Positions 6,658 to 27,381 of a DNA stretch of 64,000 nt are shown piece after piece (the first letter of the stretch is position 1; every line of letters begins with the position of its first letter). This DNA comes from Candidatus Woesearchaeota archaeon (GTDB lineage Archaea > Nanobdellota > Nanobdellia > Woesearchaeales > JAGVYU01): the NCBI GenBank assembly GCA_043805595.1, contig JAZDHV010000006.1, forward strand, positions 11,724 through 75,723. Reading direction: 5' to 3'. Under the pieces are notes generated by a model that saw only the letters and a list, made by a program, of their open reading frames with translations, searched no databases and was not told the DNA's origin. The translations under genes were made by a program, and so were the position numbers.

Positions 6658-6721
6658 TTTATTTTCCTCCTACATGTTTATTTGTAACACATTAGTAACT
6701 ACACATAGTATACTTAAGTTT

Positions 6722-6746
6722 TTGTTGTAATATTATATTACAACAA
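6722..6746. promoter_or_regulatory. Perfect 25-bp palindrome TTGTTGTAATAT-T-ATATTACAACAA in divergent promoter region (candidate TrmB operator)
   Basis: Seen directly, ~40 bp upstream of TrmB paralog start (6785); related TTGTTGT-N10-ACAACAA at 5300-5326 upstream of the other TrmB paralog. Confidence 0.4.
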
Positions 6747-6784
6747 TAATAAAATTTAAATACTGGAAAACAACTGCACTCTGT

Positions 6785-7528: not shown

Positions 7529-7600
7529 TAGTTAATAAATATTCAATTGCAAATAATTAGAAACTTGATTAAAGAAACTTGTTTATAATTAATAATAAAG

Positions 7601-7608
7601 TTTATATA
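7601..7608 (+). promoter_or_regulatory. TATA-box-like TTTATATA ~25 bp upstream of transporter start
   Basis: Position and sequence fit archaeal TATA element for a leaderless transcript; inference only. Confidence 0.3.
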
Positions 7609-7630
7609 ATTATTATATGAGGAAAAGAAT

Positions 7631-8791
7631 ATGAAAAAAGAGGTGTGGGAGGCAGCTGCGACATTAGTCGGAGCAACAATCGGCGCAGGAGTCTTGGGAA
7701 TCCCTTATGTGATTGCAAAAGCAGGGTTTATTGTAGGCCTCGTGGATATCTTGATCATAGGTTTCTTCATCCTAATGCTTCAGCTCTATATGGGTGAGAT
7801 TGTATTGAGGACAAAAGGAAACCATCAGATAACAGGATTTGCAGAGAAATATATCGGGAAAAAAGGAAAATTTATTGTTGCATCACTTTTCATATTAAGC
7901 ATTTACGGTGCCTTGATTGCCTACCTGATTGCCAGCGGAGAATTATTGTCGACGATATTTGGAGGAAACCCAATATATTATGGATTTGGATTCTTTGTCT
8001 TCTGCAGCACAATAATATATATTGGAATCAAGGCAATCAAAAGATGGGAACTAGGGATATCAATGATCCTTATCGGGATCCTAATACTGATAATAACAGT
8101 ATCCTTCACAAAAATCAATTATTCAAATTTTCACCTAGTTAACTTTAACAATATACTTGTACCATATGGAGTTATCCTATTCTCATTATTTGGCACAGTG
8201 GCAATACCAGAGATGAAAGAAGAGCTCAAGAAGAACAAGAAAGAGCTGAAAAAAGCAATAATAATCGGGACAACTATATCAATACTGATTGCAATAATCT
8301 TCAGCTTTGCTGTATTAGGAGTGGTTGGACTACAGAATTTTGAGAGTCTTGAAACAGACAAAAGAATTGCAACAATAGCACTTGGGCAAATAATGGGGAG
8401 AAATATGCTCATATTTGCAAACTTGTTTGCATTATTTGCAATAACAACAAGCTTTTTAGTATTAGGCTATGGGTTAAAGGAGATGTTCCATTTTGATGAC
8501 CATATTGGATGGAGGCTGTCATGGATCTTCACAATATCTGTACCAATAATTTTTTTCTTCATTGACTCATTTATTGTCGATATCACCAATTTTATCAATA
8601 TAATCGGATTTACAGGAACTTTTGCATTAGGGTTAATAGGAATAATGACTGTCATCATATATATGAAAGCCAAGAAATACGGGGAGAGAAAACCAGAATA
8701 TACAATTGCAAAAAACAGAGTGATAGAATATCTTCTGATTGGGTTGTTTGTTCTTGGAATGGCTTATGAGATTGTTAAAATGTTAATATAA
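7631..8791 (+). CDS. Amino-acid permease-family transporter (Trp/Tyr permease / AAAP-like), ~11 TM
   Basis: 386 aa polytopic membrane protein; N-terminal EAAATLVGATIGAGVLGIPY motif typical of amino acid transporters. Confidence 0.65.
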   Translation: MKKEVWEAAATLVGATIGAGVLGIPYVIAKAGFIVGLVDILIIGFFILMLQLYMGEIVLRTKGNHQITGFAEKYIGKKGKFIVASLFILSIYGALIAYLIASGELLSTIFGGNPIYYGFGFFVFCSTIIYIGIKAIKRWELGISMILIGILILIITVSFTKINYSNFHLVNFNNILVPYGVILFSLFGTVAIPEMKEELKKNKKELKKAIIIGTTISILIAIIFSFAVLGVVGLQNFESLETDKRIATIALGQIMGRNMLIFANLFALFAITTSFLVLGYGLKEMFHFDDHIGWRLSWIFTISVPIIFFFIDSFIVDITNFINIIGFTGTFALGLIGIMTVIIYMKAKKYGERKPEYTIAKNRVIEYLLIGLFVLGMAYEIVKMLI

Positions 8792-8813
8792 GAAAATTAA
8801 TATGAGAATTAGA

Positions 8814-9398
8814 TTATTCCTCTATTCTATGTGTAATTTCAAGGTAAGGCCTATTGCCCCCAATCACCCATAATCTCTCACCAGGCATAAACAAGTCCTT
8901 AGAAAGCAAAAGCCTTCTCTGATTATCCATATGGGATTCACCATAAACATATCCTTTGAAATTAACATAATGTTGATTTACATCAGGAAAAACTAGATTT
9001 CTCTTTAAGATCCTATTTTCACCAATGACACATGTCTTGTATTTTCCCTCGGATTCAGGAAATAGATTGTAATAAGACGGAGGTATGCAAATCCTTCTTC
9101 CTTGATCGACTTTAACACCTTTTTTTATAGGATTTGAAAAGAGGATAGCACTTTCAGGATAATCTTGATTAGATCCTTGATAAGGCAACATAGCTAACAA
9201 TTCCCTAAATTCTATCATTGTAATAGGATCTAAATTGCAATCCAATCCTCTTCCACTTAATAACAGACCATGATCATGAGGAAGGAGCCCTTTTTCAACT
9301 GCTTCAACCACTAATTCAGGTGTAATTGAAAAATAATCAGCTAAATCATCTAGATCAAACATAATACCAAGTCTTCTTGCTGTACTCTTTGTTGTCAT
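8814..9398 (-). CDS. Hypothetical protein
   Basis: Start taken at internal Met (MTTKSTARRL) to avoid overlap with the 3' end of the giant gene; no recognised domain. Confidence 0.4.
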   Translation of the reverse strand: MTTKSTARRLGIMFDLDDLADYFSITPELVVEAVEKGLLPHDHGLLLSGRGLDCNLDPITMIEFRELLAMLPYQGSNQDYPESAILFSNPIKKGVKVDQGRRICIPPSYYNLFPESEGKYKTCVIGENRILKRNLVFPDVNQHYVNFKGYVYGESHMDNQRRLLLSKDLFMPGERLWVIGGNRPYLEITHRIEE

Positions 9399-9447
9399 GA
9401 TAAATCGAAGTATAAATTGATTTAAAAATGTTACGGTTAAGTAGTAA

Positions 9448-12400
9448 CTATTTCTTAGAATTCTTATCTTTTTTAGAAGATTTATTATCTTTTTCTTTTT
9501 CCTTTTTATTATTATTCTCATCCAAAAAATCAAGGATCTTGTCATTATATTTTACAAACAATATGATGATAAAAACAATGACTAAGCCTGCAATAATATA
9601 ATTGAGATAATCAATGAAAAAAGAGGCTGGTTTGCTTATAATCAAACTGGCACTTTCCTTAATCTTGCCTAAAAAATCATTCAAATCCTCTTTAATTTTC
9701 TCTGAAATAGGAACATCAGGAGCTTTCTTTACAATAAGGAGCACTTCATTGCTCTCAACAACACCTCCCTTGCCATCATCAGCTGTAAATACCACTGTTT
9801 CAGCACCACTAAATCCTGGGTCATGGATTAACTTAGCTATACCAAGTTCATTGTCAATATCAATATTTATATGATCTGTAGACTCAGCTGAATAAACAAG
9901 CTTATCACCATCAGGATCAATGAAATATTGAGAAAGATCTAAGGATCTATTCTCATCAAAATTCCAGACCTGGATGGGAATACCTTTTTCATCAATAATA
10001 GTCTTATTAACAGATAAAATCCTGATCAGATTGTTCAATTCATTGACAGACAGTCGTGTCTTAACAATAATATCAACCATATTCTTTATCAACAAATCAG
10101 CGAACTCATCGTTAGAAAGGATTGCGTTGGATTCAGTGTTGACAACCTTGCCTTCAGCATTATACTTATAACGGCCATCTGATATTGAGCTGAGGATCTC
10201 ATCAGTCCTAAACTCCTCAATTGTTGTAGTGGGTTTCTCAGGTATTGTGACCAATGTTGTTACAATCATCGTTGTTGATGTTATCTCAGCTGAACTCAAT
10301 GCTGTCTCTGCAGTTGGAGTAATCAAAGAAGAGATTGTGTCATAATTATAATAAACCAAGCTGACAATAACAGCTATTATCACTAAAATAAGCAGATATA
10401 TTGGCCATTGGAGATCATCCTCCTTTTTAGGCTTTTTCTCCCTGATTATCTTTTCTTTTGGTTTTTCAGTTATCTTTTTTGGAGCAACAATGACTGTCTT
10501 TTCAACAGGCTTTTCTATTTTTTTTAATTCAATAATAGGCTTTTTCTCCAAAATAACAGGTTTCTCCCTCATCAGACCAGCAATTGCATAATAGCTAAAA
10601 TCAGGAAGTTTTGTCTCAAAATAAAGGAATGAATCATCCTCATCAATGATCTTAGTAGAAATATCAATCCATTGGCGCTTTTCATACCTCTTTATAATAA
10701 TTGATTTTGGATCAATATCTTGATACACAATCCATGATTTCTTAACCCTGAACCTCAGAAGGACATTTGAAAGGTTGTTTTCACTTATATTTTTTGCATC
10801 TATCTCAAAATACCTATAAACATGAGGGGAAGGCCTGATGAAAGTAGGCTTTTTTTTCAAACCTTTGATAGAGATTGATGCATTGCTAATCCTGCTCCTG
10901 ATCCTAAATGATATCTCACCAATACCAATCTTCTCATTCACTGGGATTGTGACATCATCACCAACTGAATATGTTGAGAGTGATTTTTCAAAATAATATG
11001 CACTACTCCTCCTTTTAACATATGAGCGTATAATAATCAAAATAATGACAATTAAAATGCCAATAATAATGTAAGTGAGATTATTCATCAAAAAAAGCAA
11101 GATAAAATTTATTATGCTCCATGCACCAAAAAAGATTGATTTAACAATTCCATATAAAAAACTTAGAATGTTGAGTATTCCAATCTTCTTATGGATATAA
11201 TAAATCAAGGCAATCAATATTGCAAGAAGCACAAGCAAAAACAATAAGGCAGGCCAGATTTTTGGCTCAACAATCTCAGGACCTATCTGCATCTTTTCAT
11301 CTTTTTTTACCTGCTTTTCAACCAGTTTTTTAGGTTCAATATTTTGACCTTTCTTTATTTCCGCTTTTATTGTCTCATCTTTCCTGATCTCATCTTTTTT
11401 TTCTGGTATTACTGGCTTTTCTTTTTTTGGCCACTTTGAAATAAAAGATATTACCTTAATCAGAATTATCAAAAGAACCAGGACAATGATTCCAGCAATG
11501 ATATAGGGGAAATAATCATTAATCATGGTTCTAACAGGTGTTATCACATTGTTGAGTGAGCCTGATAATGTCTGCAAAAATCCTATATTTTCTCCAGATA
11601 AAGTTGTTGATGTTGTTAAAGGCCCACTAGTAGTTGTGACATCTACTAATGATGATGTTGTAGTCTCAATCAAAGTGGTTGTTGTTTCAGCCAAAGTTGT
11701 TGTCTCTACAATCTCTATTGCAGTGGTTGCTGTAACATTTTCATAAGGCAAGAATGGCAACATATTCATGTAATAAAAAGCAGTGACAATTATTGCAATC
11801 AAGATAATCAAGAATACAGGCCAAACAGGAGGTCTTTTCTTTTCCTCTTTTGTATCCTTTAACACTAATTTTTTAACAGGCCCTGCCTTGGCTCTCTTTA
11901 ATGGCTTTTTCTCAACATTTTTTATCAATTCTTTTCTCTTTTTCTCTTGTTCTATTCTCTTTTTCTCCTTTTCTAATCTTTTCTTTTCCCTATTCTTTTT
12001 ATTGAGCTCTTTTTTCCTTGCCCTTTTCACTCTCCATTTGCTGTATCTAACTCTTATTTTTCCAGATGTTTTCCTTGAGAATCTAAGAAGTGGTCTTCTA
12101 AAAATTAGAATTATGATGATTAGTAACAATAAGGTAATTCCTGCCAAGAAAAACCATTTATACAATAAGACAAAATTATAAGCTGATTTAAAGTATCCAA
12201 AAATAGTATCCTTTAATGTACCTATAACACCCTTAATTTTCTCATACAATATCCCAATCTTGGATGTGAGAGGGGGTTCAATTGCAGCCACTTCTGTCGT
12301 TGTCACTTCCTCTACTGTTGCAGCAGTTGTCTCATTTACTGGAACAAACAAAGACTTGAAAAAAGGCGCGATAGGATAAGCCAGAAAGACATAGATCAGG

Positions 12401-14145
12401 ACTGCAGCCACAATCGCAATAACAATAACCAAAATGATATGCCAGATCTCAACCTTGTACTTTTTTCTTGCAACCTCTTCTTTTATAATTTTTTCAGGCT
12501 CTTTTTTAACATCTTTTTTTGGCTCTTTCTTGACCTCTTTTTTGATAACAGACTTTACTTTTTTTACTTTCTCCATTATTTGAGCCTTTTCTGCAATCTT
12601 CTTCAATTTACTCTTTTTAACAATATCCTTTGACAAGGAAAGTATAATCAGGACAACAATCAAAATTATCAAGGCAATAATAAGATAAATCCAGAATATA
12701 GATATAAAGTCAATGATTGCATTTGACTTCTTAAGACTGATTATAAAAGGCTGGACATAAACAATATTGTTGCTGGATTTAACATTTAATTTGACCAGAT
12801 AATTTCCAGGAGGGGTATTTTCAGAAGGTTTTGTCATAATGCTAAAGGATGTTGATTCTGAAGGAGCTAAGGCAACAAATTTCTGCTGTGATGAAATCCA
12901 AGGCTGATCTGTCTCAAGAGACAGTTCATAATCAGCTAATTTATTCCCTGAATTCCTGATAGGAATTGAAGTAATGGATTCAGAATAGCTTACTTTTATC
13001 CTCTTTGATCCCCTGCCAATCTTTGGAATAAAACAATTCTCAATATTGAGAGGAAGAGACAAAGATTTGCTGATCTTCCCTATATCAGATTTGATATCAA
13101 TTGAATAAGTCCTTGAATATTCATCTCCAACAGGAGGCTTGACATTTAGGTATACTAATTGTGACTTGCCTGAACCAATTGAAACCTTATTTGTATCAAG
13201 AGATAAGATATCATCAATTGGAGAAATTTCAATCTCATATGAATTCTCAATCGGACCAGGATTATCAATCTTGACAGGGATTTTTACAGGCAAGGACTCG
13301 CAAATATCATAATCATAACTGATTTCCTTAAAATCATTATTTGATGCTTGAGATTGAGCAGATAAAACTTCACCAAGCTTAACATCATAATCATAACAAT
13401 TGTCCACCTGAAGATCCAGAGGAAATTTTGTAAGGAATTTAGATTGTGTAGCAAGAACTGATGCTTCAATTGAATAATTCCCAACATCTTCACAAGAAGG
13501 ATCAATACTTAAGGTAGTGATCTTACCAGCACCTGGATCAATAATAAGAGGGTTTTGGTCAGTTGCAGAGGCATCATTGAATGAATTGATATAAACCTTA
13601 TATTCTTCCTTGAAAAAGCCAACATTATTGATTTGGATCTCATATTCTGCCTTGTCACAACCGCAGATCTTCTGCGAATTTGTCAAAGGAATAACTTCCA
13701 AGTTCTGGCAATTCTGGATTATTACATTCTGATTTAACTCCTTGACCTCACCAGATGATGATATTATCTGGATTTTATGGCCATATGAGCCTTTATCATA
13801 GAAGCAGGGAACCTTAATATGCTGATATAAATCAATTGACTCTCCAGAATCTAATTTAAAGATATAAGGGGCAATTGTAACCCACTTTGAGATCTCATTA
13901 TTATATATATTTACTTCATAACTTCGAGAATAAATATCATTATTTTCCACTATTATAGTGTTTATTGACTCAATACAAGAGCATGTCCGAATTTCAGCAT
14001 CTGTATATGCATTCATCCTGTTTGTTGCATAAACATCAGAGGTTAAGCTAATCAAAAGAATTATTGACAATAAAAGTATAAGTGTTAAAGTATATTTTAT
14101 GGATTTATTCATATAATACCAACCATTTATGTAATAATCCCCCAA
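9448..14145 (-). CDS. Giant (1565 aa) multi-pass surface protein with alternating Thr-rich, TM and Lys/Glu-rich segments
   Basis: N-terminal signal/TM; at least 8-10 strongly hydrophobic TM helices interleaved with KKE-rich stretches and Thr-rich linkers (TATTAIEIVETTTLAETTTT); C-terminal basic tail. Confidence 0.65.
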   Translation of the reverse strand: MGDYYINGWYYMNKSIKYTLTLILLLSIILLISLTSDVYATNRMNAYTDAEIRTCSCIESINTIIVENNDIYSRSYEVNIYNNEISKWVTIAPYIFKLDSGESIDLYQHIKVPCFYDKGSYGHKIQIISSSGEVKELNQNVIIQNCQNLEVIPLTNSQKICGCDKAEYEIQINNVGFFKEEYKVYINSFNDASATDQNPLIIDPGAGKITTLSIDPSCEDVGNYSIEASVLATQSKFLTKFPLDLQVDNCYDYDVKLGEVLSAQSQASNNDFKEISYDYDICESLPVKIPVKIDNPGPIENSYEIEISPIDDILSLDTNKVSIGSGKSQLVYLNVKPPVGDEYSRTYSIDIKSDIGKISKSLSLPLNIENCFIPKIGRGSKRIKVSYSESITSIPIRNSGNKLADYELSLETDQPWISSQQKFVALAPSESTSFSIMTKPSENTPPGNYLVKLNVKSSNNIVYVQPFIISLKKSNAIIDFISIFWIYLIIALIILIVVLIILSLSKDIVKKSKLKKIAEKAQIMEKVKKVKSVIKKEVKKEPKKDVKKEPEKIIKEEVARKKYKVEIWHIILVIVIAIVAAVLIYVFLAYPIAPFFKSLFVPVNETTAATVEEVTTTEVAAIEPPLTSKIGILYEKIKGVIGTLKDTIFGYFKSAYNFVLLYKWFFLAGITLLLLIIIILIFRRPLLRFSRKTSGKIRVRYSKWRVKRARKKELNKKNREKKRLEKEKKRIEQEKKRKELIKNVEKKPLKRAKAGPVKKLVLKDTKEEKKRPPVWPVFLIILIAIIVTAFYYMNMLPFLPYENVTATTAIEIVETTTLAETTTTLIETTTSSLVDVTTTSGPLTTSTTLSGENIGFLQTLSGSLNNVITPVRTMINDYFPYIIAGIIVLVLLIILIKVISFISKWPKKEKPVIPEKKDEIRKDETIKAEIKKGQNIEPKKLVEKQVKKDEKMQIGPEIVEPKIWPALLFLLVLLAILIALIYYIHKKIGILNILSFLYGIVKSIFFGAWSIINFILLFLMNNLTYIIIGILIVIILIIIRSYVKRRSSAYYFEKSLSTYSVGDDVTIPVNEKIGIGEISFRIRSRISNASISIKGLKKKPTFIRPSPHVYRYFEIDAKNISENNLSNVLLRFRVKKSWIVYQDIDPKSIIIKRYEKRQWIDISTKIIDEDDSFLYFETKLPDFSYYAIAGLMREKPVILEKKPIIELKKIEKPVEKTVIVAPKKITEKPKEKIIREKKPKKEDDLQWPIYLLILVIIAVIVSLVYYNYDTISSLITPTAETALSSAEITSTTMIVTTLVTIPEKPTTTIEEFRTDEILSSISDGRYKYNAEGKVVNTESNAILSNDEFADLLIKNMVDIIVKTRLSVNELNNLIRILSVNKTIIDEKGIPIQVWNFDENRSLDLSQYFIDPDGDKLVYSAESTDHINIDIDNELGIAKLIHDPGFSGAETVVFTADDGKGGVVESNEVLLIVKKAPDVPISEKIKEDLNDFLGKIKESASLIISKPASFFIDYLNYIIAGLVIVFIIILFVKYNDKILDFLDENNNKKEKEKDNKSSKKDKNSKK

Positions 14146-15947: not shown

Positions 15948-18900
15948 TTAATATATTTCTAATTCTCTATGACGGACTCTCCTCAAGTCATCACTTTTTG
16001 TTGAAGCTATAGAAACCCTCACGTCATAAATTCCTGGATCTGCCCAGTCTGGAATCTCTAAGTCAGCAAGTTTCGTCACTGTTGTCTTTGCATCAATACC
16101 AAAAGGACCTAACTTTCTTCTAACTCCAAGTTCAGGAATTGTGTATGTGACTGTAATCTCTTTTATATCATAATAGTCGTTGTTAGTCATTGTAATTACT
16201 GCCTGAACACTGCTTCCTGCCTCAAACTTATCTGAGTATGTTCCGTCGAAACTAATCCTGTCAATAAACAGCTTTCTACGAGGAGATGAAATCGGATCTG
16301 GTATAACTACGTCAATAATAAAATCCTGCAAGTCTGTCAAAAATCCGTCGGAAACCATGATTATCACATGATTTTCACCAGCCTGATCCTCATCTGGATC
16401 CCATTGTATCAATCCAGTAACTGGATCAATTGTCATGTCAGCCGGCCATGTTATTAGTGAATATACAAGAGGATCATTGTCAGGATCTGACGCATCTGAA
16501 TCATACTCATATCTCTCAACAAAATCCATTGGATCATTAATCTCTAAATAAGTTACAGGTGCTGATGTGAAATAAGGCGCATGATTAATCAATGGATCAA
16601 ACAAAACATTTACAACAAATGTATCCTCTGTAAATAATCCATCCGGATCCTCTGCCCTCACAACAGCTGTGCATGAACCGATAAAAGATAAGTCTGGAAC
16701 TATGTCAACATCATCATTGGAGCCAATTGATATTCCACATTGATTGTTGTTTGAAACAGACATCAAGGTGTATGTTAATTCTGAATCTGAATTATCTGGA
16801 TCGTCGGTATAATCATTCAGATTGAAAACATTATCATTCACAGAGTCTTCAAATACATCCTCATCAGGCAATCCGCTTATAACTGGTCCATCATTAATCT
16901 CATCATCGTCAAAATAATCAGTGCAACCTAGGTCATCAGGAAAATCTGTATATGTGTCAAAATCGTTGTCTACAGAATCAGAACACTCAGTATAATCACA
17001 ACCTAAACTATCATCACAAATAAAATAACAATAATCAGTGCCTGTATCAACATCTAAATCACAATAACTATGCTCAGTACCAGCATTCTCACAAATCGGA
17101 GTGTGAGTAGTGGTAACAAAATCAAGACCACCACAAGCAGACTCATCATAAGGAGAACCACAATCAAGATCAGCATAACACAAAACAGGACCATCTGATT
17201 CGTCATCGTCAAAATAATCAGTGCAACCTAGGTCATCAGGAAAATCTGTATATGTGTCAAAATCGTTGTCTACAGAATCAGAACACTCAGTATAATCACA
17301 ACCTAAACTATCATCACAAATAAAACTACAATAATCAGTGCCTGTATCAACATCCTCATCACAATAACTATGCTCAGTACCAGCATTCTCACAAATCGGA
17401 GTGTGAGTAGTGGTAACAAAATCAAGACCACCACAAGCAGACTCATCATAAGGAGAACCACAATCAAGATCAGCATCACAAACAACAACACCATCAGACT
17501 CATCATCATCAAGATATGAATCACAACCAAAATCAGCTGGATAATCTATATCACCATCACCATCATTATCAACACCATCATTACATTCATAAAATTGCCT
17601 TACAACAGTCAAAGTAACAACATTACTGTCTGCTGTCCCACCATTGCCATCATTTGCAGTAAATGTTACAGTCTCAACACCAAAATAACTAGATGGCTGA
17701 GTAAAACTGACAATATGGGAAGTTGGATTGATTGAAACGACAATATTAGGATTGTCTAAAGCAGATGCTGCATATGACAGAGCATCTCCATCTGGATCAG
17801 AAAAATAGTTGTCTAGGTCAAAAGCATTCAAATTTGATGTCCCTTGGTTCCATGTCTCATCAGAAATTGGGTTTACAATTGGATCAAAATTAGGCGGATC
17901 ATTTATAGGTGTAACAGTTACTCTGAAAGTGTCTTCAGAATATAATCCATCTGGATCTGTAACTCGAACAACAGCGTCACAAACACCATTAAAATCTAAT
18001 GCTGGAGCAATGTCAATATTGTCTGAACCATCAATGCTTATTCCACATTGATTGCTGTTTGAAACTGATGTAAGAGAATATATCAATTGTGAATCTGTAT
18101 TATCTGGATCACTAGCAAAATCATTCAAGTTAAAAGCATTAGGCTTTGTTGTGTCTTCTGCAAGAGTCTGATCAGGCAATGAACCAATCACAGGAGCATC
18201 ATTAACAGGAGTGACAGTAACCCTGAAAGTATCTGTATCAAAAGCTCCCAAAGGATCTTCAACCCTAACAGTAACATCACAAATTCCATAAAAATTAAAA
18301 TCAGGATTTATGTCAATATTGTCGCTTCCATCAATAGTAACTCCACATTGATTTCCATTAGTAATAGATGTCAATGAGTAAGCCAATAAAGAGTCAGCAT
18401 GATCTGGATCACCTGCATAATCATTCAAGTTAAATGCGTTATTAATTGATGCATCCTCTGCTAATGTTTGATCAGGCAATCCGCTTATTGTTGGTGCGTC
18501 ATTGACTGGTGTGACAGTAACTGAGATTGAATCAGTATCAGTCAATCCACCTGTATCTTGAACTGTGAATGTGACTATGCCTGTTGAACCACTATATCCC
18601 GGAGCAGGTGTAAAAGTCACAATATGAGTTGTTGGATTGATTGAAACACCAACATTAGGCAATTGATTAGATGTCCATGACAGATCTCCATCAAGGTCTT
18701 CCTCATCCTGGACATAATCATCCAAGTCAAGACTGTTATGGATTGTGTCTTCTGGGAATGAAACATCAGGAATATTAGTTATGATTGGAGGTGTGTTTGC
18801 CTTGTGCATAGCTCTTGAGACAGTCAGGTCTGTATTAGAAATATCAAACTCTCCTTCAATTGGAAGATATAATGGATTTGTAACATCATATGTATAGTGG

Positions 18901-20201
18901 CCGTTTACATAACCGCCGATAACAGCAACGCCATTTGAATTGGTTGTTGCAGTCTGACCATTTGATGAAACAGTTGCGCCCTGGATTCTTGCAGCAGTTG
19001 TATCATCTGAAATTATGAAAGTAACCTCATAGACTGGAGCTGGAGCAACATAAATCTCTTCCTGAGCTGTCTCAGTTGGATTAGGTTTTCCGTCACAAAG
19101 CGGTGAGTCAGCAGTTCCTGCCACTTCCATTGTAAAAACATCCTCATATGGAGCAACCCATTGGAATGAATGTGCTGTCGGATCAACTTCATTCGGATTA
19201 GCTGGAAGTGAAGCTGAACCAGATAAAATAACCTGATGAGCTGAATTTCTCACTTCATAATCAATATCTGTAGGAACAGATGTCAAAGCATGCTGTGGAT
19301 CAGCATAATTGCTGATCTTATTATACTCAACTGTTACAGTGTCTCCTGCAACTGGATAAGGATCAGTTGTCCTCAATCCATTGATGATTGTGTAACATTC
19401 ATTTGTAGGCCTTCCTGGAAGCACACCAAAATATTTACTTGATGACAATGGAATATTTGAGGAACATTGGTTGTCAGTAACAACAGTCCTTACTGTTGCC
19501 TCATATTGTCCGTCTTCAGCAGGAACCCATGAATATTCAACATTTTTCACCTCATCCATAAAGATTGGGTCACCATGTGCAGCATCAAAATAAGTCATCT
19601 GCTGGTTAACAATCTGGCCATCTTTTTTGATTGTCAAAGATACAGTAGTGTCTGCAGAATAATAGATATCCCTGTATGCTGGAGGGATATATCCAACATT
19701 ATTATGAGCATCCTGGAAAGCTGAATGAGTTACTGCATCTAATGAAGCAGAAACATTAACCTGCAAAGGCTCATTAGCATAAAGATCATTTGTGACTGTG
19801 AATTCATCAATTGTAGAAGCGCAATTTGCAACTCTGTCAAAATTAATATCAACACTTCCTGAAGCATGTCCAGGATTGCAAAAAGTATGGAATGTAGCAA
19901 TGCCTTCAACAGGGATATATCCTGTATCAGCTGGATTTGCTGCTGGAACTATGAAATAACCTGCATAACCAAAAGGGGACAATAAACAAGAGGGGAATGA
20001 GATCAGCATGTGCCCATTAGAGGTTGATCCTGAAAATGAAAATGGAGTTGAGCTAACAGTATCACAGTTAATGTCGAGACAGGTAAAGAACTTTGATTCG
20101 ACATTGTTGACATTAAAGTTAAATGTAATGTCTGCAACTGCAAAGACATTTGCTGCCAGAAGAACAGCTAAAAATGGCATTATAAATAGTATTTTTTTCA
20201 T
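15948..20201 (-). CDS. Giant (1417 aa) secreted adhesin-like protein with cadherin-like (VNDAP) repeats and duplicated Cys/Asp-rich modules
   Basis: Signal peptide MKKILFIMPFLAVLLAANVFA; at least three ~100-aa repeats RVTVTPVNDAPxISGLPDQTLAED; two near-identical Cys-rich modules; no C-terminal anchor. Confidence 0.7.
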   Translation of the reverse strand: MKKILFIMPFLAVLLAANVFAVADITFNFNVNNVESKFFTCLDINCDTVSSTPFSFSGSTSNGHMLISFPSCLLSPFGYAGYFIVPAANPADTGYIPVEGIATFHTFCNPGHASGSVDINFDRVANCASTIDEFTVTNDLYANEPLQVNVSASLDAVTHSAFQDAHNNVGYIPPAYRDIYYSADTTVSLTIKKDGQIVNQQMTYFDAAHGDPIFMDEVKNVEYSWVPAEDGQYEATVRTVVTDNQCSSNIPLSSSKYFGVLPGRPTNECYTIINGLRTTDPYPVAGDTVTVEYNKISNYADPQHALTSVPTDIDYEVRNSAHQVILSGSASLPANPNEVDPTAHSFQWVAPYEDVFTMEVAGTADSPLCDGKPNPTETAQEEIYVAPAPVYEVTFIISDDTTAARIQGATVSSNGQTATTNSNGVAVIGGYVNGHYTYDVTNPLYLPIEGEFDISNTDLTVSRAMHKANTPPIITNIPDVSFPEDTIHNSLDLDDYVQDEEDLDGDLSWTSNQLPNVGVSINPTTHIVTFTPAPGYSGSTGIVTFTVQDTGGLTDTDSISVTVTPVNDAPTISGLPDQTLAEDASINNAFNLNDYAGDPDHADSLLAYSLTSITNGNQCGVTIDGSDNIDINPDFNFYGICDVTVRVEDPLGAFDTDTFRVTVTPVNDAPVIGSLPDQTLAEDTTKPNAFNLNDFASDPDNTDSQLIYSLTSVSNSNQCGISIDGSDNIDIAPALDFNGVCDAVVRVTDPDGLYSEDTFRVTVTPINDPPNFDPIVNPISDETWNQGTSNLNAFDLDNYFSDPDGDALSYAASALDNPNIVVSINPTSHIVSFTQPSSYFGVETVTFTANDGNGGTADSNVVTLTVVRQFYECNDGVDNDGDGDIDYPADFGCDSYLDDDESDGVVVCDADLDCGSPYDESACGGLDFVTTTHTPICENAGTEHSYCDEDVDTGTDYCSFICDDSLGCDYTECSDSVDNDFDTYTDFPDDLGCTDYFDDDESDGPVLCYADLDCGSPYDESACGGLDFVTTTHTPICENAGTEHSYCDLDVDTGTDYCYFICDDSLGCDYTECSDSVDNDFDTYTDFPDDLGCTDYFDDDEINDGPVISGLPDEDVFEDSVNDNVFNLNDYTDDPDNSDSELTYTLMSVSNNNQCGISIGSNDDVDIVPDLSFIGSCTAVVRAEDPDGLFTEDTFVVNVLFDPLINHAPYFTSAPVTYLEINDPMDFVERYEYDSDASDPDNDPLVYSLITWPADMTIDPVTGLIQWDPDEDQAGENHVIIMVSDGFLTDLQDFIIDVVIPDPISSPRRKLFIDRISFDGTYSDKFEAGSSVQAVITMTNNDYYDIKEITVTYTIPELGVRRKLGPFGIDAKTTVTKLADLEIPDWADPGIYDVRVSIASTKSDDLRRVRHRELEIY
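16903..17502. repeat. Near-perfect 300-bp tandem duplication inside adhesin gene
   Basis: Seen directly: 16903-17202 vs 17203-17502, only a few mismatches; encodes duplicated Cys-rich module DCGSPYDESACGGLDFVTTTHTPICENAGTEHSYCD... Confidence 0.85.
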
Positions 20202-20283: not shown

Positions 20284-21789
20284 TTAAGGACCTGGATTTA
20301 GAGCTCCTCCCCCAGTAAAACCTCCACCACTCAAAACCCCTCCATTACCTGTTGGTCCAAAAGCATTGAAAAAGCTACCAGTTCCTCCTAATTGAGGAAT
20401 GCCGCCAGGTGAAGGTGGCAATTGAGGACACCATGGAATAAGACTATTACTACCATTTGGAACCATAATAGGAATAATATATATCTGCTGTTCAGGTTCA
20501 GGTGGAGTGTATAATGCTTTTTCAGCAGCTGCACCTACACCTTGAGAAGCAATGTCTATACCATAATCAATCAGTTTATTTGGACCTTTTACACCAGGTG
20601 CAAATAATGAAAATCCAAATAAACCACCTTGACGGTAAGAAGCAACATTCAAAACAAGAGGATCTTCTGTTAATTCAGACCTGTTGGATCTGCAGAGCAA
20701 TAGTATATCATTGCCATTAGAATCTACAAAAGGAACTAAATAATTAGCATTTGCTGCATTATCAGATCCAAATGCTCTCCAGAAAATCTGCTCATTAGTC
20801 AATGAACCAATATTTTGGCCAAGATCAACTTCATAAACAAAATTAACATCATCTCTCCTGTCTCTAAACAGATTAAGCAATCCTTTTGTGAGTTCTTTTG
20901 CAACATAACCACCTGCTCCAACTTCCGGCTGACCTAATGAAGCAGATGTTCTATAAGCTGCCAATCCAGCACCCATAAATTTCTCAAGTAAATTCCTGAC
21001 ATAAACTGTCTCATGCTCAAGATCAGGTCCATTATTACAGAAAACAAAAGAGATTTCTGGAATATCATTTGCCCTTATTCTCTTATCATAAAAATTAGTT
21101 GTCCTTGCATAAACCTGAGGGAATACCTTATTAATCTCTCCATCAGGATTGAATCTGCTGTAAAAAATCAGGAAATCCTTAAATCCTCCTGTAATGTCAG
21201 GATCGCTTACATACAATCCAGAAACCTGCATTTCTCCCTGAGGCAAGAAGTGTCTTGCAAACTGAGTAATATTAAATACTCCTTCTTGTGTTGAGCCAAT
21301 CCCATTCAAATAATTTTCACCAAATCTTAATAATTCAGAGTTTCCTGGTATTGAAGATTTTCTTGATGTGATCAAATTAACATCTACAGGAACAACATAA
21401 GATGTTCCATCAGATGGAATATGATCTTTAAGACCAGGATTGGGATCAATTCCAGTACCATTAATCAATGCACTTATCTGGCCTTGTTTTTTTGCTCTTT
21501 GAGCCATTTCTGTTTGGAGAATTGAATCAAGATCAGCTGGATCAAAAACATCTTCACATTCTGCTTGCGCAGGTTCTGGGGCTTTTTCCCTCACTTCTGG
21601 AAAATTTTCTGGAACTCTTCTTGATTTTGTTGTATGATCAACACCATAATTCTGTGTTGCACATGAAGCAGCTACAGCAACAATTGAAGTACCGATTACA
21701 AAATCTCTTGCTAATGCTTTAGCAGTATCCCATGCATTTGTTAGATATTCCATTGGATTTAAAAGATTGATATTATTCATTTTATTCAC
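20284..21789 (-). CDS. Hypothetical membrane-anchored protein with Gly-rich C-terminus
   Basis: 501 aa; N-terminal hydrophobic anchor FVIGTSIVAVAASCATQ; C-terminal GGIPQLGGTGSFFNAFGPTGNGGVLSGGGFTGGGA; 8-nt overlap with upstream gene. Confidence 0.45.
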   Translation of the reverse strand: MNKMNNINLLNPMEYLTNAWDTAKALARDFVIGTSIVAVAASCATQNYGVDHTTKSRRVPENFPEVREKAPEPAQAECEDVFDPADLDSILQTEMAQRAKKQGQISALINGTGIDPNPGLKDHIPSDGTSYVVPVDVNLITSRKSSIPGNSELLRFGENYLNGIGSTQEGVFNITQFARHFLPQGEMQVSGLYVSDPDITGGFKDFLIFYSRFNPDGEINKVFPQVYARTTNFYDKRIRANDIPEISFVFCNNGPDLEHETVYVRNLLEKFMGAGLAAYRTSASLGQPEVGAGGYVAKELTKGLLNLFRDRRDDVNFVYEVDLGQNIGSLTNEQIFWRAFGSDNAANANYLVPFVDSNGNDILLLCRSNRSELTEDPLVLNVASYRQGGLFGFSLFAPGVKGPNKLIDYGIDIASQGVGAAAEKALYTPPEPEQQIYIIPIMVPNGSNSLIPWCPQLPPSPGGIPQLGGTGSFFNAFGPTGNGGVLSGGGFTGGGALNPGP

Positions 21790-23932
21790 CTCTGCCTCTT
21801 CCTAATCTGCTGAATGGCCCACGAGCAATTGCTGCCAGATTATGGCCTAAATTTTGAATACCATGTTTAACAAATCTAACTGGACCTCTGCTATGGTCTT
21901 CAAAAGTCTCTTCAATTGTCTGCCTATTCCCAATTAAATGAGTTATTATTCCATCTTTATCCCTGTAATCAATCAAAGTCTGATCAACAACAGATAAAAC
22001 TCCAGCTGCCTGATCTAAATATTTACTATCAATAATATTTGAATCAGCTAAATTTGTTAATGCAAGGGCAAATGCCTCTGCAGGAACAGATGGATTTGTT
22101 ACGCTCATTTTTCCAGCAAAATATCCAGTTCCAAAACCAGGTTCAACATCAGGAACATTTTCTGCTCCTTGAGCTAAATTCCCAATATTAGATGTCATAG
22201 CAGAGATTTCATGGCCACTGTTTGTAATTAAATCTAAAACAGTATCACCAGGAGCAACTCCAATGTCATCTCCATAACCAAGTGCTGGAATATCTCGCAT
22301 AAAGTTGAGTCTAACTGTTTGTTTTCCTCTCTTACCTGTATCAACTTGTATTTGAGCAAGGTCTCTTGTACTTGATTCTAATTCATTACCGAGAGAATCC
22401 AATAATTGTAATTGAGTTAATTGATCAGGTGTTGTTTGCAAAGGAACTGGATTTAATTTAGAATCTAAATCTGCATCTTCAGCTTGAAAAGTATTATTTG
22501 CTGTTTGAAGCTCTGCTCTTGATTCTAGTGCTTTAATTGTCTCTTGCCTTGCGGTTCTTAAGCTTGAATATGCGCCTTTTAACTCAGATCCCCTTTTCCC
22601 ATAAGCATCAATTAATGCTGCAAGAGTTTCGTGTCCTGTACCTGCAATTAGAGATTGATTACTATCAATTGTTTGTTGAGCTATTTCTAAATCAGCCCCT
22701 CTTTTACCATAAGCTCCTAATAAAGCTAAAAGATTATTATGACCAGCACCTGCAATTTGTGCATTAATAGCATCAATATCAGATCTTGCTGTTCCTAAAG
22801 CAGCTGAAGTTTCTGAAAGCATAACTTGAGAATCTATTAAATCACCTTGAGCTTGTCCATAAGCTGCTAAAGCTTTGTCTCTTGCTAATGCAGCTGGCCT
22901 AGCTCTTGCATATTCTGTAAGAAAACTTCCAGCCATAATACCTGCAATTGCTGCAACTGCAGTAACTTTTACAACATTTCTTCTACACCAATCTTTTACT
23001 CTTTGATATAAAGAAGAAGGACTTGTAGTAATTTCAGGCAGAGTATCACTAGATGCTGCGACACTGCTTTCAGAAGTATCTGGTCTTTCAGCTGGAGCTG
23101 ATCCATCAGAAGCAGGACTACCATATAAACTTGCACTAACATCACTCTCGCTCAAACCAGGCCTATCACCTGGGGGAGTATCTCCAATCTCAGCTCTTGG
23201 ACCCTCTGGTGTTCGCATTGTAACTTCTGGAGTTCTAACACCACAAGGAAATCTGGAACTTGATAATTTATCAGGAACTCTTCCGCCTGCATAAACTGGA
23301 TGAGCTTCTCCAACAACAGCCTCTAAAGGTACATCTTGAGGTAGTACAACATCATCATCGCCTGGATGATCACCAGGACAACGAATTGTAGATTTACTCA
23401 TACCCCAAGCTTTATGAGCTCTTTGTAATGTTGATTGAGAATCTGAATCAACAACATCATCTATATCAGCTGGAGAAGTTGTATAACCATTAGCAATTTG
23501 CCGAGCTTTTGCCATCTTTGACAGACGAAGCTTGTCATCACTTCTCCTGTAATCAAATCCGTCGAGAACTCCTGAATAAAAAGCCCGTGCAGTTAGATTT
23601 AAGTCTCCTAAAATTGTATCAACAGATTCATCAGAATTTTGATATCTTTGACGAGCATTTGCTATATCATCATCAGATAATTGAGAAACTGATCTTAAAT
23701 GCGAGGAATCTTTTCCCTGATGTCTTGAGACTGTTTTAACAGTGCCATATTTGACACCAAATTGGTCACCAACTGCTTCTCTTCTTTCTTGAAGAGTTAG
23801 TTTTCTTCCATCTTCACTATGAGTTTTTGCTTGAAATGCAGTATAAATTTCATCTGCTTGAGTTGCATTTAAATCCCTGTATGTTGCTCTAGAAGCATAG
23901 TCTGGTTTTTTTTCAATATTTCCTTTAGTCAT
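21782..23932 (-). CDS. Hypothetical single-pass membrane protein with C-terminal coiled-coil repeats
   Basis: 716 aa; central TM VVKVTAVAAIAGIMAGSFL; repeated AGxGHxxLxALxxAYGKRGxxL units; higher GC than surroundings. Confidence 0.45.
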   Translation of the reverse strand: MTKGNIEKKPDYASRATYRDLNATQADEIYTAFQAKTHSEDGRKLTLQERREAVGDQFGVKYGTVKTVSRHQGKDSSHLRSVSQLSDDDIANARQRYQNSDESVDTILGDLNLTARAFYSGVLDGFDYRRSDDKLRLSKMAKARQIANGYTTSPADIDDVVDSDSQSTLQRAHKAWGMSKSTIRCPGDHPGDDDVVLPQDVPLEAVVGEAHPVYAGGRVPDKLSSSRFPCGVRTPEVTMRTPEGPRAEIGDTPPGDRPGLSESDVSASLYGSPASDGSAPAERPDTSESSVAASSDTLPEITTSPSSLYQRVKDWCRRNVVKVTAVAAIAGIMAGSFLTEYARARPAALARDKALAAYGQAQGDLIDSQVMLSETSAALGTARSDIDAINAQIAGAGHNNLLALLGAYGKRGADLEIAQQTIDSNQSLIAGTGHETLAALIDAYGKRGSELKGAYSSLRTARQETIKALESRAELQTANNTFQAEDADLDSKLNPVPLQTTPDQLTQLQLLDSLGNELESSTRDLAQIQVDTGKRGKQTVRLNFMRDIPALGYGDDIGVAPGDTVLDLITNSGHEISAMTSNIGNLAQGAENVPDVEPGFGTGYFAGKMSVTNPSVPAEAFALALTNLADSNIIDSKYLDQAAGVLSVVDQTLIDYRDKDGIITHLIGNRQTIEETFEDHSRGPVRFVKHGIQNLGHNLAAIARGPFSRLGRGRGE

Positions 23933-25236: not shown

Positions 25237-25261
25237 CAAACATAAAAATTAATTATCTAAA

Positions 25262-25330
25262 CTAAAGAACCACCAGTCAGAGACTGGTGGAATTCACTAA
25301 ATCCACAACTGCAATACCTCCATGAAGCAC
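25262..25330 (+). repeat. Truncated copy C of the palindrome-rich element
   Basis: ctaaagaaccaccagtcagagactggtggaattcactaaatcc; palindrome 25270-25290; diverges after ~45 bp. Confidence 0.7.
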
Positions 25331-25331
25331 A

Positions 25332-26105
25332 CTAACCTTTTCCCACTAAAGTTTCAAGAGGACTATTTTTTTCGCCGCCTTTGGCGGACTCTCCTAAAAG
25401 TACCCCACGCAAGGCATCATGATCGCTGACATCGCGAAAGTTAGCATTGAAATTGGAATTGTTGACAAAGCCGTTAAGCCTAGACGCCCGCGCAACAATC
25501 TCATCATCCTTAATACTCTCAGCAGCATGATCAGGATTCATTGTGAATACTCTTGTTTCAGAAATTCTACCATTTACTCTTAGATTATCCATAACTCTTT
25601 CAAGCATATAACCAGAACCATAACCAGCACTAACCCAAGGCACCCTAGCAACAGTAACATCCTTATCATACCTACCAGTTCTGACATGAAATGACCTATA
25701 CTCAGCATCACTTCCTTTAAGCCTCAACCCTTTAGGATCAACAAAAACAACATCCCCTGCCTGCTCTAACCTCAAAATAAGATCTTTTTGTCCAGAATTA
25801 AGATGAACATAACCAATACCAGCAAGCTCCTGACACACAGTTGAAGTGCCTTCTCCAAAAACCACATTAAAAGCAGCATTCCCACCAATACCCAACAACA
25901 ATTTTCCATCTCTTTTTGTAGCAAGAGGAGCATTAGCAGTATAAAACCAAACTCTTCTCAATCCTTCACCAGCTATCCTAGCAGCAGACAATTGCGCACC
26001 AGTATTAATAGTAGAAGGAACAAACAACCCATAAATATCTTTTAAAGCTCCTTGCCTAACATTATAAACAAACTGTTGTTCTTGTGCATTATTCATTTTC
26101 CACAC
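25332..26105 (-). CDS. Hypothetical protein (paralog of 26140..27036 in C-terminal region)
   Basis: 257 aa; shares C-terminal VARASRLNGFVNNS...ALRGV segment with neighbour; unusually GC-rich codons. Confidence 0.5.
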   Translation of the reverse strand: MWKMNNAQEQQFVYNVRQGALKDIYGLFVPSTINTGAQLSAARIAGEGLRRVWFYTANAPLATKRDGKLLLGIGGNAAFNVVFGEGTSTVCQELAGIGYVHLNSGQKDLILRLEQAGDVVFVDPKGLRLKGSDAEYRSFHVRTGRYDKDVTVARVPWVSAGYGSGYMLERVMDNLRVNGRISETRVFTMNPDHAAESIKDDEIVARASRLNGFVNNSNFNANFRDVSDHDALRGVLLGESAKGGEKNSPLETLVGKG

Positions 26106-26139
26106 TCCAATTTTGGATTATATATTGATAATTAAAACT

Positions 26140-27036: not shown

Positions 27037-27381
27037 TTTATAAACTTTATTAATATCTTTATTATAAAGTAGTAAATTATTTTATAAAATTGTCAATTCT
27101 TAACTGATTACGTGAGAAACCCCCAACTTAAGCCAAATTAACATTAAAATGCAATGCATTTCTAAGCTCCCAGAAATTCCAAATGAATTTTAAGGATATA
27201 TTGAGAGTATATTATTTATAATCAAAACTAAAACAAACTTTTATAAAAGCAGAATAAGTCCCTATCCTATTATATATGCTAAGGGGAATTGATAAAATAA
27301 TTGATATTACAAATTATTAATTAGTAATATTAATTGGAAATATTAATTGGTAATTGATAATGTTAATGTGTAATTGATAAG

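What the first reader, a model, noticed from the sequence alone, without database searches (positions are those of the whole stretch)
16903..17502. Near-perfect 300-bp tandem duplication (Cys/Asp-rich module) inside the 1417-aa adhesin gene
Units 16903-17202 and 17203-17502 differ at only a handful of positions. Each encodes a ~100-aa module with 10 Cys and many Asp (DCGSPYDESACGG...CDDSLGCDYTECSDSVDNDFDTYTDFPDD), likely a disulfide/Ca-binding knot. The high identity suggests very recent expansion, a hotspot for copy-number variation, or an assembly artefact.
Basis: seen in the sequence. Interest (0 to 1): 0.5.

Follow-up and report, generated by a model that had tools for sequence, protein, structure and literature searches.

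The report
Homogenised Cys/Asp module pair in archaeal adhesin
Two almost identical 100-residue cysteine- and aspartate-rich modules sit side by side in a large secreted protein of a Woesearchaeota-like archaeon. They belong to an uncurated module family that forms arrays of 1 to 15 copies, and their near-identity most likely comes from recent recombination between two older modules, which is ordinary for repeat-bearing surface proteins.

Summary
Window 16903-17202 and 17203-17502 differ at 13 of 300 bases, in frame, inside a 1417-aa signal-peptide protein (15948-20201, minus strand) built from tandem-95/Big_9/cadherin-like domains.

Each unit has two parts. An 8-Cys beta-sheet sub-domain ("B") has no Pfam hit and no PDB analogue. 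A 30-residue acidic loop closed by two Cys ("A") is a divergent NCBIfam acid_disulf_rpt; its invariant Asp/Asn align with the Ca2+ ligands of the teneurin-4 C-rich domain.

The same 100-aa module forms arrays of up to 14-15 copies in other DPANN archaeal proteins.

The closest relative is a Woesearchaeota MAG with 91% aa identity. It already has two modules in this gene, but they are only 70% identical and are separated by extra motifs.

In the window, the first 9 codons of copy 2 still encode the relative's module-2 sequence. The remaining 273 nt are a near-copy of module 1.

The pair is therefore best read as gene conversion or unequal exchange plus flanking deletions, not a fresh duplication.

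An assembly artefact cannot be excluded without reads but is disfavoured. Interest is modest.

The parts
15948..20201 (-). Host gene: 1417-aa secreted, adhesin-like protein. It has an N-terminal signal-peptide-like segment, tandem-95/Big_9/cadherin-like repeats, the Cys/Asp modules, one more cadherin-like repeat, He_PIG, and a C-terminal Ig-like domain.
   Evidence: The ORF is listed. Pfam hits are Big_9 (1e-29), Cadherin_5 and He_PIG. NCBIfam tand_rpt_95 scores 119 bits against a cutoff of 90.
17502..17606 (-). Leading acidic motif A0 (aa 866-900, ...ECNDGVDNDGDGDIDYPADFGCDSYLDDD). It is a partial, third 'A' copy preceding module 1 and explains TRF's 2.1 copies.
   Evidence: The module HMM matches positions 56-100 at 17502-17636, and the A-motif regex matches at 17523-17585.
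17202..17501 (-). Module copy 1 (aa 901-1000). It is orthologous to module 1 of the relative MAG (84% nt identity, first 27 nt identical).
16902..17201 (-). Module copy 2 (aa 1001-1100).
17175..17201 (-). First 9 codons of copy 2 (ESDGPVLCY). This is the unconverted 5' segment. It is identical in protein to the start of the relative's module 2, with every nt difference at a silent position or within a Leu-to-Leu codon change. It differs from copy 1 at 7 of 27 nt.
   Evidence: Family frequencies of P5, L7 and Y9 are 29%, 2% and 20%. Fisher test of 7/27 against 6/273 gives p = 2.6e-5.
16902..17174 (-). Inferred conversion/exchange tract: codons 10-100 of copy 2, 97.8% identical to 17202-17474 of copy 1. 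Perfect runs of 121, 27 and 119 nt are interrupted only at 17026-17027 (codon 59, Ser/Tyr) and 17055-17057 (codon 49, Glu/Leu).
17292..17489 (-). B sub-domain of copy 1 (about aa 905-970). It has 8 conserved Cys and a predicted three-stranded beta-sheet. The matching part of copy 2 is 16992-17189.
   Evidence: Family alignment and Cys columns 8, 14, 23, 37, 47, 58, 62, 68. AF2 model with pLDDT 91.9. No Pfam hit. No PDB analogue.
17202..17291 (-). A motif of copy 1 (aa 971-1000, TECSDSVDNDFDTYTDFPDDLGCTDYFDDD). It is an acidic loop closed by Cys73-Cys93 and a putative Ca2+ site. The matching part of copy 2 is 16902-16991.
   Evidence: Invariant C/D/N columns. Weak NF033662 hit. Alignment to teneurin-4 7PLP. 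Ligand list in PMC9058538.
17622..18794 (-). Older 100-aa-period tandem-95/cadherin-like repeats in the same gene. They serve as an internal control, being only 66-71% identical at nt level.

Best explanation
What is shown. The 600 bp encode two adjacent copies of a 100-residue extracellular module in a secreted, adhesin-like protein of a Woesearchaeota-type (DPANN) archaeon. Each module has two parts. One is a disulfide-rich beta-sheet sub-domain (B) with 8 conserved Cys. The other is an acidic C-x-D-x-x-DND-x-D-x3-D-x-P-x-D-x2-C loop (A).

Inferred function. The A loop probably binds Ca2+, in the manner of thrombospondin type-3 repeats and the teneurin C-rich domain. Such modules would be strung head to tail to form a stiff, protease-resistant stalk or spacer. 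The number of modules would then set the reach of the binding domains.

Inferred history. The near-identity of the two copies is not a newly created duplicate. The ancestor already had module 1, acidic spacer motifs, a diverged module 2, another acidic motif and a Big_9-like domain. This arrangement is still seen in the closest MAG and, in part, in a more distant homologue. In the window's lineage three things happened.
- A deletion between repeated GATGATGATGAG sequences removed the spacers.
- A deletion at AATGATG microhomology removed the downstream motif and domain.
- Homologous recombination (gene conversion or unequal exchange) overwrote codons 10-100 of module 2 with module-1 sequence. 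It left a 9-codon module-2 remnant at the 5' end.

Prediction. The resulting perfect runs of 119-121 nt make the locus prone to further gain or loss of units.
For: The module is a real, recurrent domain.
- An exhaustive phmmer search gives 775 hits.
- Full modules occur with a 100-101 aa period: 15 copies in P0054, 10 in Woesearchaeota MCB9358687.1, 14 in P0324, and 4 in Nanoarchaeia HLC96339.1.
- Ten Cys columns and the DND/D columns are 80-100% conserved.
- The AF2 model has pLDDT 91.9.

Ca-binding by the A motif.
- A-only arrays score 330-414 bits on NF033662.
- The A profile aligns with teneurin-4 7PLP. Family-invariant D/N fall on D840, D843, N844, D845, D847, D851 and D854, which the paper lists as Ca2+ ligands.

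Comparison with the closest relative (REL, GCA_043810355.1).
- It is colinear with no gaps over aa 1-1001 at 91% identity. Its contig ends exactly at the end of module 1.
- The rest of its gene starts a second contig. That part carries 3 A motifs, a module 2 that is 70% identical to module 1, an A motif, and a Big_9-like domain absent from the window.
- Flanking synteny is conserved on both sides.

Evidence for homogenisation.
- Copy 1 against copy 2 shows 7 differences in the first 27 nt and 6 in the next 273 (p = 2.6e-5).
- The first 9 residues of copy 2 equal those of the relative's module 2, with only silent nt differences.
- dS is about 0.04 in the tract, against 0.41-0.44 between the two genomes.

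Polarity. Homologue P0062 has module 1 followed by A motifs and also has the Big_9-like domain.

Microhomology is visible at both junctions.

Concerted evolution is also seen elsewhere.
- The relative's two modules share an identical final 42 nt.
- Adjacent copies are 89-100% identical in P0054 and P0070.
- Other 100-aa repeats in the same gene are only 66-71% identical.
Against: - No reads are available, so copy number and phasing in the window are unverified.
- Only one close relative exists, and its gene is split over two contigs. Sequence could be missing between them, and their adjacency is inferred from synteny and a 10-nt overlap.
- Orthology of the 5' end of copy 2 to the relative's module 2 rests on 3 diagnostic residues.
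- The two whole-codon differences (GAG/TTA and AGT/TAT) match neither of the relative's modules. A simple conversion tract does not explain them.
- Ca2+ binding, disulfide formation and an adhesin or stalk role are inferred by analogy only. The match to 7PLP has E = 0.15, and the A motif scores below the NF033662 cutoff.
Confidence: 0.68

Rival explanations
1. Fresh tandem duplication. A single ancestral module was duplicated very recently by slippage or unequal exchange, and the 13 differences accumulated afterwards.
For: The units are exactly 300 nt, head to tail and 95.7% identical. Near-identical neighbouring modules occur in other family members.
Against: - A tandem duplication creates no new sequence at the junction. 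Yet copy 2 starts with 7 differences in 27 nt, against 6 in the following 273 (p = 2.6e-5).
- Those 9 codons encode exactly the start of the relative's module 2.
- The relative has two modules. Both it and outgroup P0062 carry extra motifs here, so the window's arrangement is derived by loss.
Confidence: 0.1
2. Assembly artefact. The contig may thread through a repeat or strain bubble incorrectly. In that case the true genome has one module, more than two modules, or a relative-like arrangement, and copy 2 is a chimera of reads from co-occurring strains.
For: - The relative's MEGAHIT assembly breaks exactly at the end of module 1.
- Three of 12 module-bearing contigs end within 3-20 nt of a module end.
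- The two whole-codon variants could be strain variants.
- The window's genome is not in the public collection, so its assembly method is unknown.
Against: - The copy1-to-copy2 junction and the PVLCY segment occur once in the window and must come from real reads.
- The period equals the natural module period, and the frame, all 10 Cys and all motif residues are intact in both copies.
- Flanks are colinear with the relative on both sides.
- Artefactual duplications are usually exact and k-mer sized (general knowledge, not tested here).
Confidence: 0.17
3. Programmed diversification. The pair is a template/variable repeat of a diversity-generating retroelement or a similar targeted mutagenesis system, and the codon-sized differences are its product.
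For: The internal differences are clustered multi-nucleotide changes confined to two codons, with no scattered substitutions. DGRs are known to be common in DPANN archaea (my knowledge, not tested here).
Against: - The changes are GAG/TTA and AGT/TAT, which are not adenine-specific in either direction or on either strand.
- Only two codons differ.
- Both copies are translated parts of one ORF.
- No other copy or donor of the variant sequences exists in the window.
- The presence of a reverse transcriptase in the window was not tested.
Confidence: 0.02

Closest known systems
NCBIfam NF033662, acidic double-disulfide repeat (acid_disulf_rpt)
   Same: The A part has the same C-x-D-x-x-D-N-D-x-D-x3-D...C acidic loop. 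Proteins retrieved with the module query that carry A-only arrays score 330-414 bits on this model. Both occur as tandem arrays in secreted proteins.
   Different: In the window each acidic loop is fused to a 66-70-residue, 8-Cys beta-sheet sub-domain that the model does not cover, giving a 100-aa period. The window's A motif scores only 15.7 bits against a cutoff of 41. The B sub-domain is almost confined to DPANN archaea among the proteins fetched.
Teneurin C-rich Ca2+-binding domain (PDB 7PLP) and thrombospondin type-3 repeats
   Same: The acidic ligand motif is shared. Seven Ca2+-ligand positions of teneurin-4 align with invariant D/N of the module family, and the first and third Cys of teneurin align with the Cys73-Cys93 pair. 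Both sit in extracellular adhesion proteins.
   Different: The sequence match is weak (E = 0.15). Teneurin has six Cys in 38 residues with a 1-3, 2-5, 4-6 pattern, whereas the A motif has two. There is no Pfam TSP_3 hit. The host is archaeal, and Ca2+ binding has not been shown.
Tandem-95 repeat / Big_9 / bacterial cadherin-like fibrillar adhesins
   Same: The host protein meets the NF012211 and PF17963 thresholds. It shares the general logic of a long secreted protein built from about 100-aa repeats.
   Different: The Cys/Asp module is a different, uncurated domain inserted among those repeats. The tandem-95 repeats in this gene are old (66-71% nt identity), while the module pair is 96% identical.
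Concerted evolution and copy-number variation of repeats in surface adhesins (for example staphylococcal SasG/Aap, streptococcal Rib/alpha C, yeast FLO/ALS; from general knowledge)
   Same: In-frame, near-identical tandem units are homogenised by recombination. Copies within a genome are more alike than orthologous copies between genomes, as seen here in both the window and the relative.
   Different: The domain type is different and the host is an archaeon. No population data demonstrate length polymorphism at this locus.

Membership tests
Tandem-95 repeat protein (NCBIfam NF012211) / Pfam Big_9 - host protein | Score at or above the curated cutoff, with several repeats | tested here: met
   NF012211 scores 119.3 bits against a cutoff of 90, in 4 stretches. 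PF17963 scores 103.6 bits against a cutoff of 23.6, in 5 stretches.
NCBIfam NF033662 acidic double-disulfide repeat - A motif | Score at or above the curated cutoff of 41 bits | tested here: not met
   The two-module segment scores 15.7 bits (E = 0.0094). The family is not listed at all for the whole protein.
NCBIfam NF033662 acidic double-disulfide repeat - A motif | Shared motif and homology to bona fide members | tested here: met
   The module query retrieves A-only array proteins. These score 330-414 bits on NF033662. The window motif aligns to profile positions 5-27 of 32.
Teneurin C-rich / thrombospondin type-3 Ca2+-binding repeat | Acidic ligand motif D-x-x-D-N-D-x-D-x3-D-x2-D conserved | tested here: met
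   Profile alignment to 7plp_A. The ligands are listed in PMC9058538. The aligned columns are invariant in 36 diverse modules.
Teneurin C-rich / thrombospondin type-3 Ca2+-binding repeat | Significant sequence or fold similarity | tested here: not met
Teneurin C-rich / thrombospondin type-3 Ca2+-binding repeat | Six-Cys pattern 1-3, 2-5, 4-6 within about 38 residues | tested here: not met
   The A motif contains two Cys, at unit positions 73 and 93.
Teneurin C-rich / thrombospondin type-3 Ca2+-binding repeat | Ca2+ actually bound | not testable with these tools
   This needs biochemistry or a solved structure.
Recent tandem duplication (segmental) | Divergence spread uniformly along the unit, with no foreign sequence at the junction | tested here: not met
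   Seven of 27 nt differ against 6 of 273 (p = 2.6e-5). The junction segment encodes the start of the relative's module 2.
Gene conversion / concerted evolution between repeats | Paralogous copies within a genome are more alike than orthologous copies between genomes, with a mosaic boundary | tested here: met
   Copy 1 against copy 2 is 97.8% identical over codons 10-100. Copy 1 against its orthologue is 82.8%, and copy 2 against the relative's module 2 is 68.5%. The relative's two modules share an identical last 42 nt that differ from the window's.
Diversity-generating retroelement template/variable repeat | Differences restricted to template adenines | tested here: not met
   The differences are GAG/TTA and AGT/TAT.
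Diversity-generating retroelement template/variable repeat | Reverse transcriptase gene nearby | not tested
   Only 14 of the window's ORFs were scanned against Pfam. None of those was an RT.

The most novel reading that the evidence does not exclude
The B sub-domain (8 Cys, three-stranded sheet) fused to an acidic Ca-type loop may be a previously undescribed disulfide-rich fold. It would be essentially specific to DPANN archaea, with rare CPR examples, and used as a rapidly recombining, length-tunable stalk in the surface proteins by which these episymbionts contact their hosts. The window would then capture a homogenisation event in progress.
Probability: 0.3. Interest if true: 0.5.

Novelty: new variant of a known kind. 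Interest (0 to 1): 0.3.

Why it matters
The finding has three modest uses.

- It defines a 100-aa Cys/Asp module with no Pfam model and no solved analogue. The module is abundant in the giant surface proteins of DPANN archaea and could be curated as a family.
- It gives a clean, small example of concerted evolution with a visible tract boundary in an archaeal surface protein.
- It is a practical warning. These module arrays break short-read MAG assemblies, so copy numbers in such genes should not be trusted without long reads.

It does not open a new mechanism. Repeat homogenisation in adhesin genes is well known.

Tried and rejected
- The word-indexed homologue search with one unit found nothing. 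The exhaustive search was needed.
- Exact look-ups of the window's adhesin, its 437-aa neighbour and its STT3 protein found no public contig, so the source and assembly method stay unknown.
- The first metagenome scan, using the C-terminal half, found no close relative.
- The second metagenome scan, using the module profile, gave 79 loci. Only 10 of these new loci (12 of all 81 loci held, counting the two from the relative MAG) carry full modules, and none is a close orthologue. No strain-level copy-number comparison beyond one MAG was therefore possible.
- Model coordinates are not exposed, so the disulfide pairing could not be read.
- Literature searches for DPANN cysteine-rich surface proteins and for the NCBIfam repeat name found nothing relevant.
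- The DGR idea was rejected on the mutation pattern.
- An ectopic donor for the two odd codons was rejected within the window.
- An antisense coding function was rejected. Only ORFs of 31-49 aa lie on the plus strand there, and there are no inverted repeats.
- The cluster of P0057, P0322, P0323 and P0324 looked like copy-number variants. It is explained by fragments of one 14-module protein.
Full report
**Observation**

The repeat is real. Window 16903-17202 and 17203-17502 differ at 13 of 300 positions. TRF reports period 300, 2.1 copies and score 1131, the strongest tandem repeat in the window.

It lies in frame on the minus strand inside ORF 15948-20201, which encodes 1417 aa. In codon phase the units are 17202-17501 (aa 901-1000, "copy 1") and 16902-17201 (aa 1001-1100, "copy 2"). 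Each has 10 Cys, 24 Asp and 6 Glu.

No antisense ORF longer than 49 aa and no inverted repeat is present.

**Host protein and organism**

The protein starts with a signal-peptide-like segment, as read directly from the sequence.

- Its Pfam hits are Big_9 (1e-29), Cadherin_5 and He_PIG.
- It also meets NCBIfam tandem-95 repeat at 119 bits against a cutoff of 90.
- The window has 34.8% G+C.
- The closest public protein is 91% identical and comes from a Candidatus Woesearchaeota MAG.
- Neighbouring genes include an STT3/AglB oligosaccharyltransferase and glycosyltransferases, in the same order as on the MAG contig.

The "adhesin" label is an inference from domain types only.

**What the unit is**

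Neither Pfam nor the word-indexed search recognised the unit. An exhaustive phmmer search did, returning 775 proteins at E <= 1e-3 and 30 at E <= 1e-30.

An HMM built from those hits shows a module with a 100-101 aa period in head-to-tail arrays:

| Protein | Length (aa) | Source | Full copies |
|---|---|---|---|
| P0054 | 3828 | not named | 15 |
| P0324 | 2113 | not named | 14 |
| MCB9358687.1 | 1605 | Woesearchaeota | 10 |
| P0056 | 925 | not named | 7 |
| HLC96339.1 | 1286 | Nanoarchaeia | 4 |

P0324 also has detectable (23% identity) N-terminal similarity and tandem-95 repeats. P0054 and P0055 share the window protein's C-terminal domains.

Ten Cys columns are at least 80% conserved, at unit positions 8, 14, 23, 37, 47, 58, 62, 68, 73 and 93. 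The motif C73-S-D-x-x-D-N-D-x-D-x3-D-x-P-x-D-x2-C93 is nearly invariant.

The module is therefore composite.

- **The A part (positions about 71-100).**
  - It is a divergent copy of NCBIfam NF033662, "acidic double-disulfide repeat". The window scores only 15.7 bits against a cutoff of 41.
  - A-only array proteins found with the same query score 330-414 bits.
- **The B part (positions about 5-70).**
  - No Pfam model matches any of 36 diverse members.
  - It was detected in 38 of 330 fetched proteins. All named ones are DPANN archaea, apart from one Staskawiczbacteria protein.

**Calcium**

A profile search of PDB sequences finds one weak hit (E = 0.15), the teneurin-4 C-rich domain 7PLP. 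The alignment covers exactly the A motif.

The paper describing that structure lists E835, D840, D843, N844, D845, D847, D851, D854 and D856 as ligands of three Ca2+ ions. It likens two of the sites to thrombospondin type-3 repeats (PMC9058538).

Seven of those positions (D840 to D854) align with columns that are invariant in the module family. Teneurin's C838 and C857, which are disulfide-bonded, align with C73 and C93.

It is not demonstrated, and formal family membership fails on score and on Cys pattern.

**Why the two copies are so alike**

The relative (REL, GCA_043810355.1, MEGAHIT) is colinear with the window protein over aa 1-1001 without a single gap. Its contig ends exactly at the last codon of module 1.

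The rest of its gene opens a second contig of the same MAG. Flanking synteny shows that the two contigs bracket the same locus:

- window 31933-17200 matches the first contig;
- window 16895-6678 matches positions 998-11737 of the second.

Between these, REL has about 1 kb where the window has 300 nt. REL carries three A-type motifs, a second B+A module, another A motif and a Big_9-like domain.

Nucleotide identity between modules is as follows:

| Comparison | nt identity |
|---|---|
| REL module 1 vs REL module 2 | 70% |
| Window copy 1 vs REL module 1 | 84% |
| Window copy 2 vs REL module 2 | 69% |
| Window copy 1 vs window copy 2 | 96% |

The differences between the window's copies are strongly non-uniform. 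Seven fall in the first 27 nt of copy 2 and six in the remaining 273 (Fisher p = 2.6e-5).

Those first nine codons encode ESDGPVLCY, identical to the start of REL module 2. Every nucleotide difference from REL there is silent or lies within a Leu-to-Leu codon change. Copy 1 and REL module 1 both start ESDGVVVCD, with identical DNA.

The diagnostic residues P5, L7 and Y9 occur in 29%, 2% and 20% of family modules. The only other module with P5 and L7 is REL's own module 2.

A tandem duplication cannot create such a junction. A recombination tract that stops nine codons short of the module start can.

Synonymous divergence in the tract is about 0.04, with one clean silent change. Between the two genomes it is 0.41-0.44 across the gene. 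The event is therefore roughly ten times younger than the split from REL.

**Polarity**

A more distant homologue, P0062, has the same "...LTVVRQxFxCNDGxDNDGD" entry into module 1. Module 1 there is followed by A motifs, and P0062 also contains the Big_9-like domain that REL has and the window lacks. The window's compact arrangement is therefore derived.

The junctions show plausible deletion end-points:

- a repeated GATGATGATGAG at the ends of the A motifs;
- AATGATG at the boundary with the next cadherin-like repeat.

**Concerted evolution is a family habit**

- REL's two modules share an identical final 42 nt that differ from the window's.
- Adjacent modules are 89-97% identical in part of P0054 and 91-100% in P0070. 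Elsewhere they are 45-70% identical.
- Within the window gene, the tandem-95 repeats, which also have a 300-nt spacing, are only 66-71% identical.
- Module 1 evolves about three times faster at non-synonymous sites than the rest of the protein (dN 0.127 against 0.043). Changes fall in the variable columns.

**Unexplained**

Inside the tract the only non-silent differences are two whole-codon replacements:

- codon 49, GAG (E) to TTA (L), at 17055-17057;
- codon 59, AGT (S) to TAT (Y), at 17026-17027.

They match neither REL module, have no donor elsewhere in the window, and are not adenine-specific. That last point rules out a DGR signature.

Candidate explanations are patchy heteroduplex repair, multi-nucleotide mutation under selection at variable surface positions, or strain mixing in the assembly. 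I cannot distinguish among these.

**Assembly artefact**

This cannot be tested without reads, and the source genome is not in the searchable collection.

Points against an artefact:

- The junction segment is unique in the window.
- The period equals the natural module length.
- Both copies keep the frame and every conserved residue.
- An independent assembly also has two modules here.

Points calling for caution:

- REL's contig breaks at this very spot.
- Three of 12 module-bearing contigs (REL's first contig and two metagenome contigs) end within 3-20 nt of a module end.

The true copy number could still be higher than two if identical internal copies were collapsed.

**Mechanism, with status**

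Shown:

- A conserved composite module exists and forms arrays.
- The pair has a mosaic boundary.
- Copies within a genome are more alike than orthologous copies between genomes.
- The structural difference from the relative within this gene is confined to this spot.

Inferred:

- The A loop binds Ca2+.
- The ten Cys form five disulfides.
- Arrays form a rigid extracellular stalk whose length is set by module number.
- The perfect runs of 119-121 nt will promote further gain or loss by homologous recombination or slippage.

**Verdict**

This is a real and tidy example of an ordinary process, repeat homogenisation in a surface-protein gene. It occurs in a module family that is itself uncurated and structurally unmatched. 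Interest is modest (0.3). The category is a new variant of a known kind.

Noticed in passing
window 47916-48000: A perfect 42-bp x 2 tandem duplication (100% identity, TRF score 170) lies inside ORF 47464-48339 (+, 291 aa, no Pfam hit). It is an in-frame 14-residue duplication.
   Followed up: partly
window 25240-27225: About 2 kb carrying two minus-strand ORFs (25332-26105 and 26140-27036, no Pfam hits) is absent from the relative MAG. There the flanking STT3 and FAD-oxidoreductase genes abut (L001 4772/4777). This is an indel between close relatives.
   Followed up: partly
window 20365-23444: The two genes just upstream of the adhesin gene (501 aa and 716 aa, no Pfam hits) have no nucleotide-level match to the relative's genes at the same position (458 aa and 814 aa). 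The flanks are 85-91% identical, so these look like hypervariable neighbours.
   Followed up: no
window 9448-14145 (-): A 1565-aa ORF has many hydrophobic segments alternating with Lys/Glu-rich and Thr-rich linkers, plus one Big_9 domain near the C-terminus. Its only Pfam hits are weak, compositional-looking matches (Ctr, cytochrome b561).
   Followed up: no
window 1-64000: No tRNA (ARAGORN) and no Rfam family at gathering threshold was found anywhere in the 64 kb.
   Followed up: partly
L001 12959-13000 and L002 572-613: In the relative MAG the two modules, otherwise 63-70% identical, share an identical final 42 nt. This is a short conversion tract, and it lies exactly where the MEGAHIT contig breaks.
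   Followed up: yes
L005 3378-3677 and L006 6097-6396: Two metagenome contigs (Ga0307992_1015007 and Ga0307990_1001826) end 6 and 20 nt after a complete module. Module arrays seem to terminate short-read contigs repeatedly.
   Followed up: partly
protein P0070 (765 aa, SRR3989344): A variant of the module with a 140-aa period is repeated four times at 91-100% amino-acid identity. This is an even more extreme case of homogenised copies.
   Followed up: no
window 62347-62484 and 1194-1251: AT-rich short tandem repeats lie in and around intergenic DNA, the second overlapping the start of ORF 1229-1699. The first region has 8-, 24- and 34-bp periods and the second a 17-bp period x 3.4.
   Followed up: no
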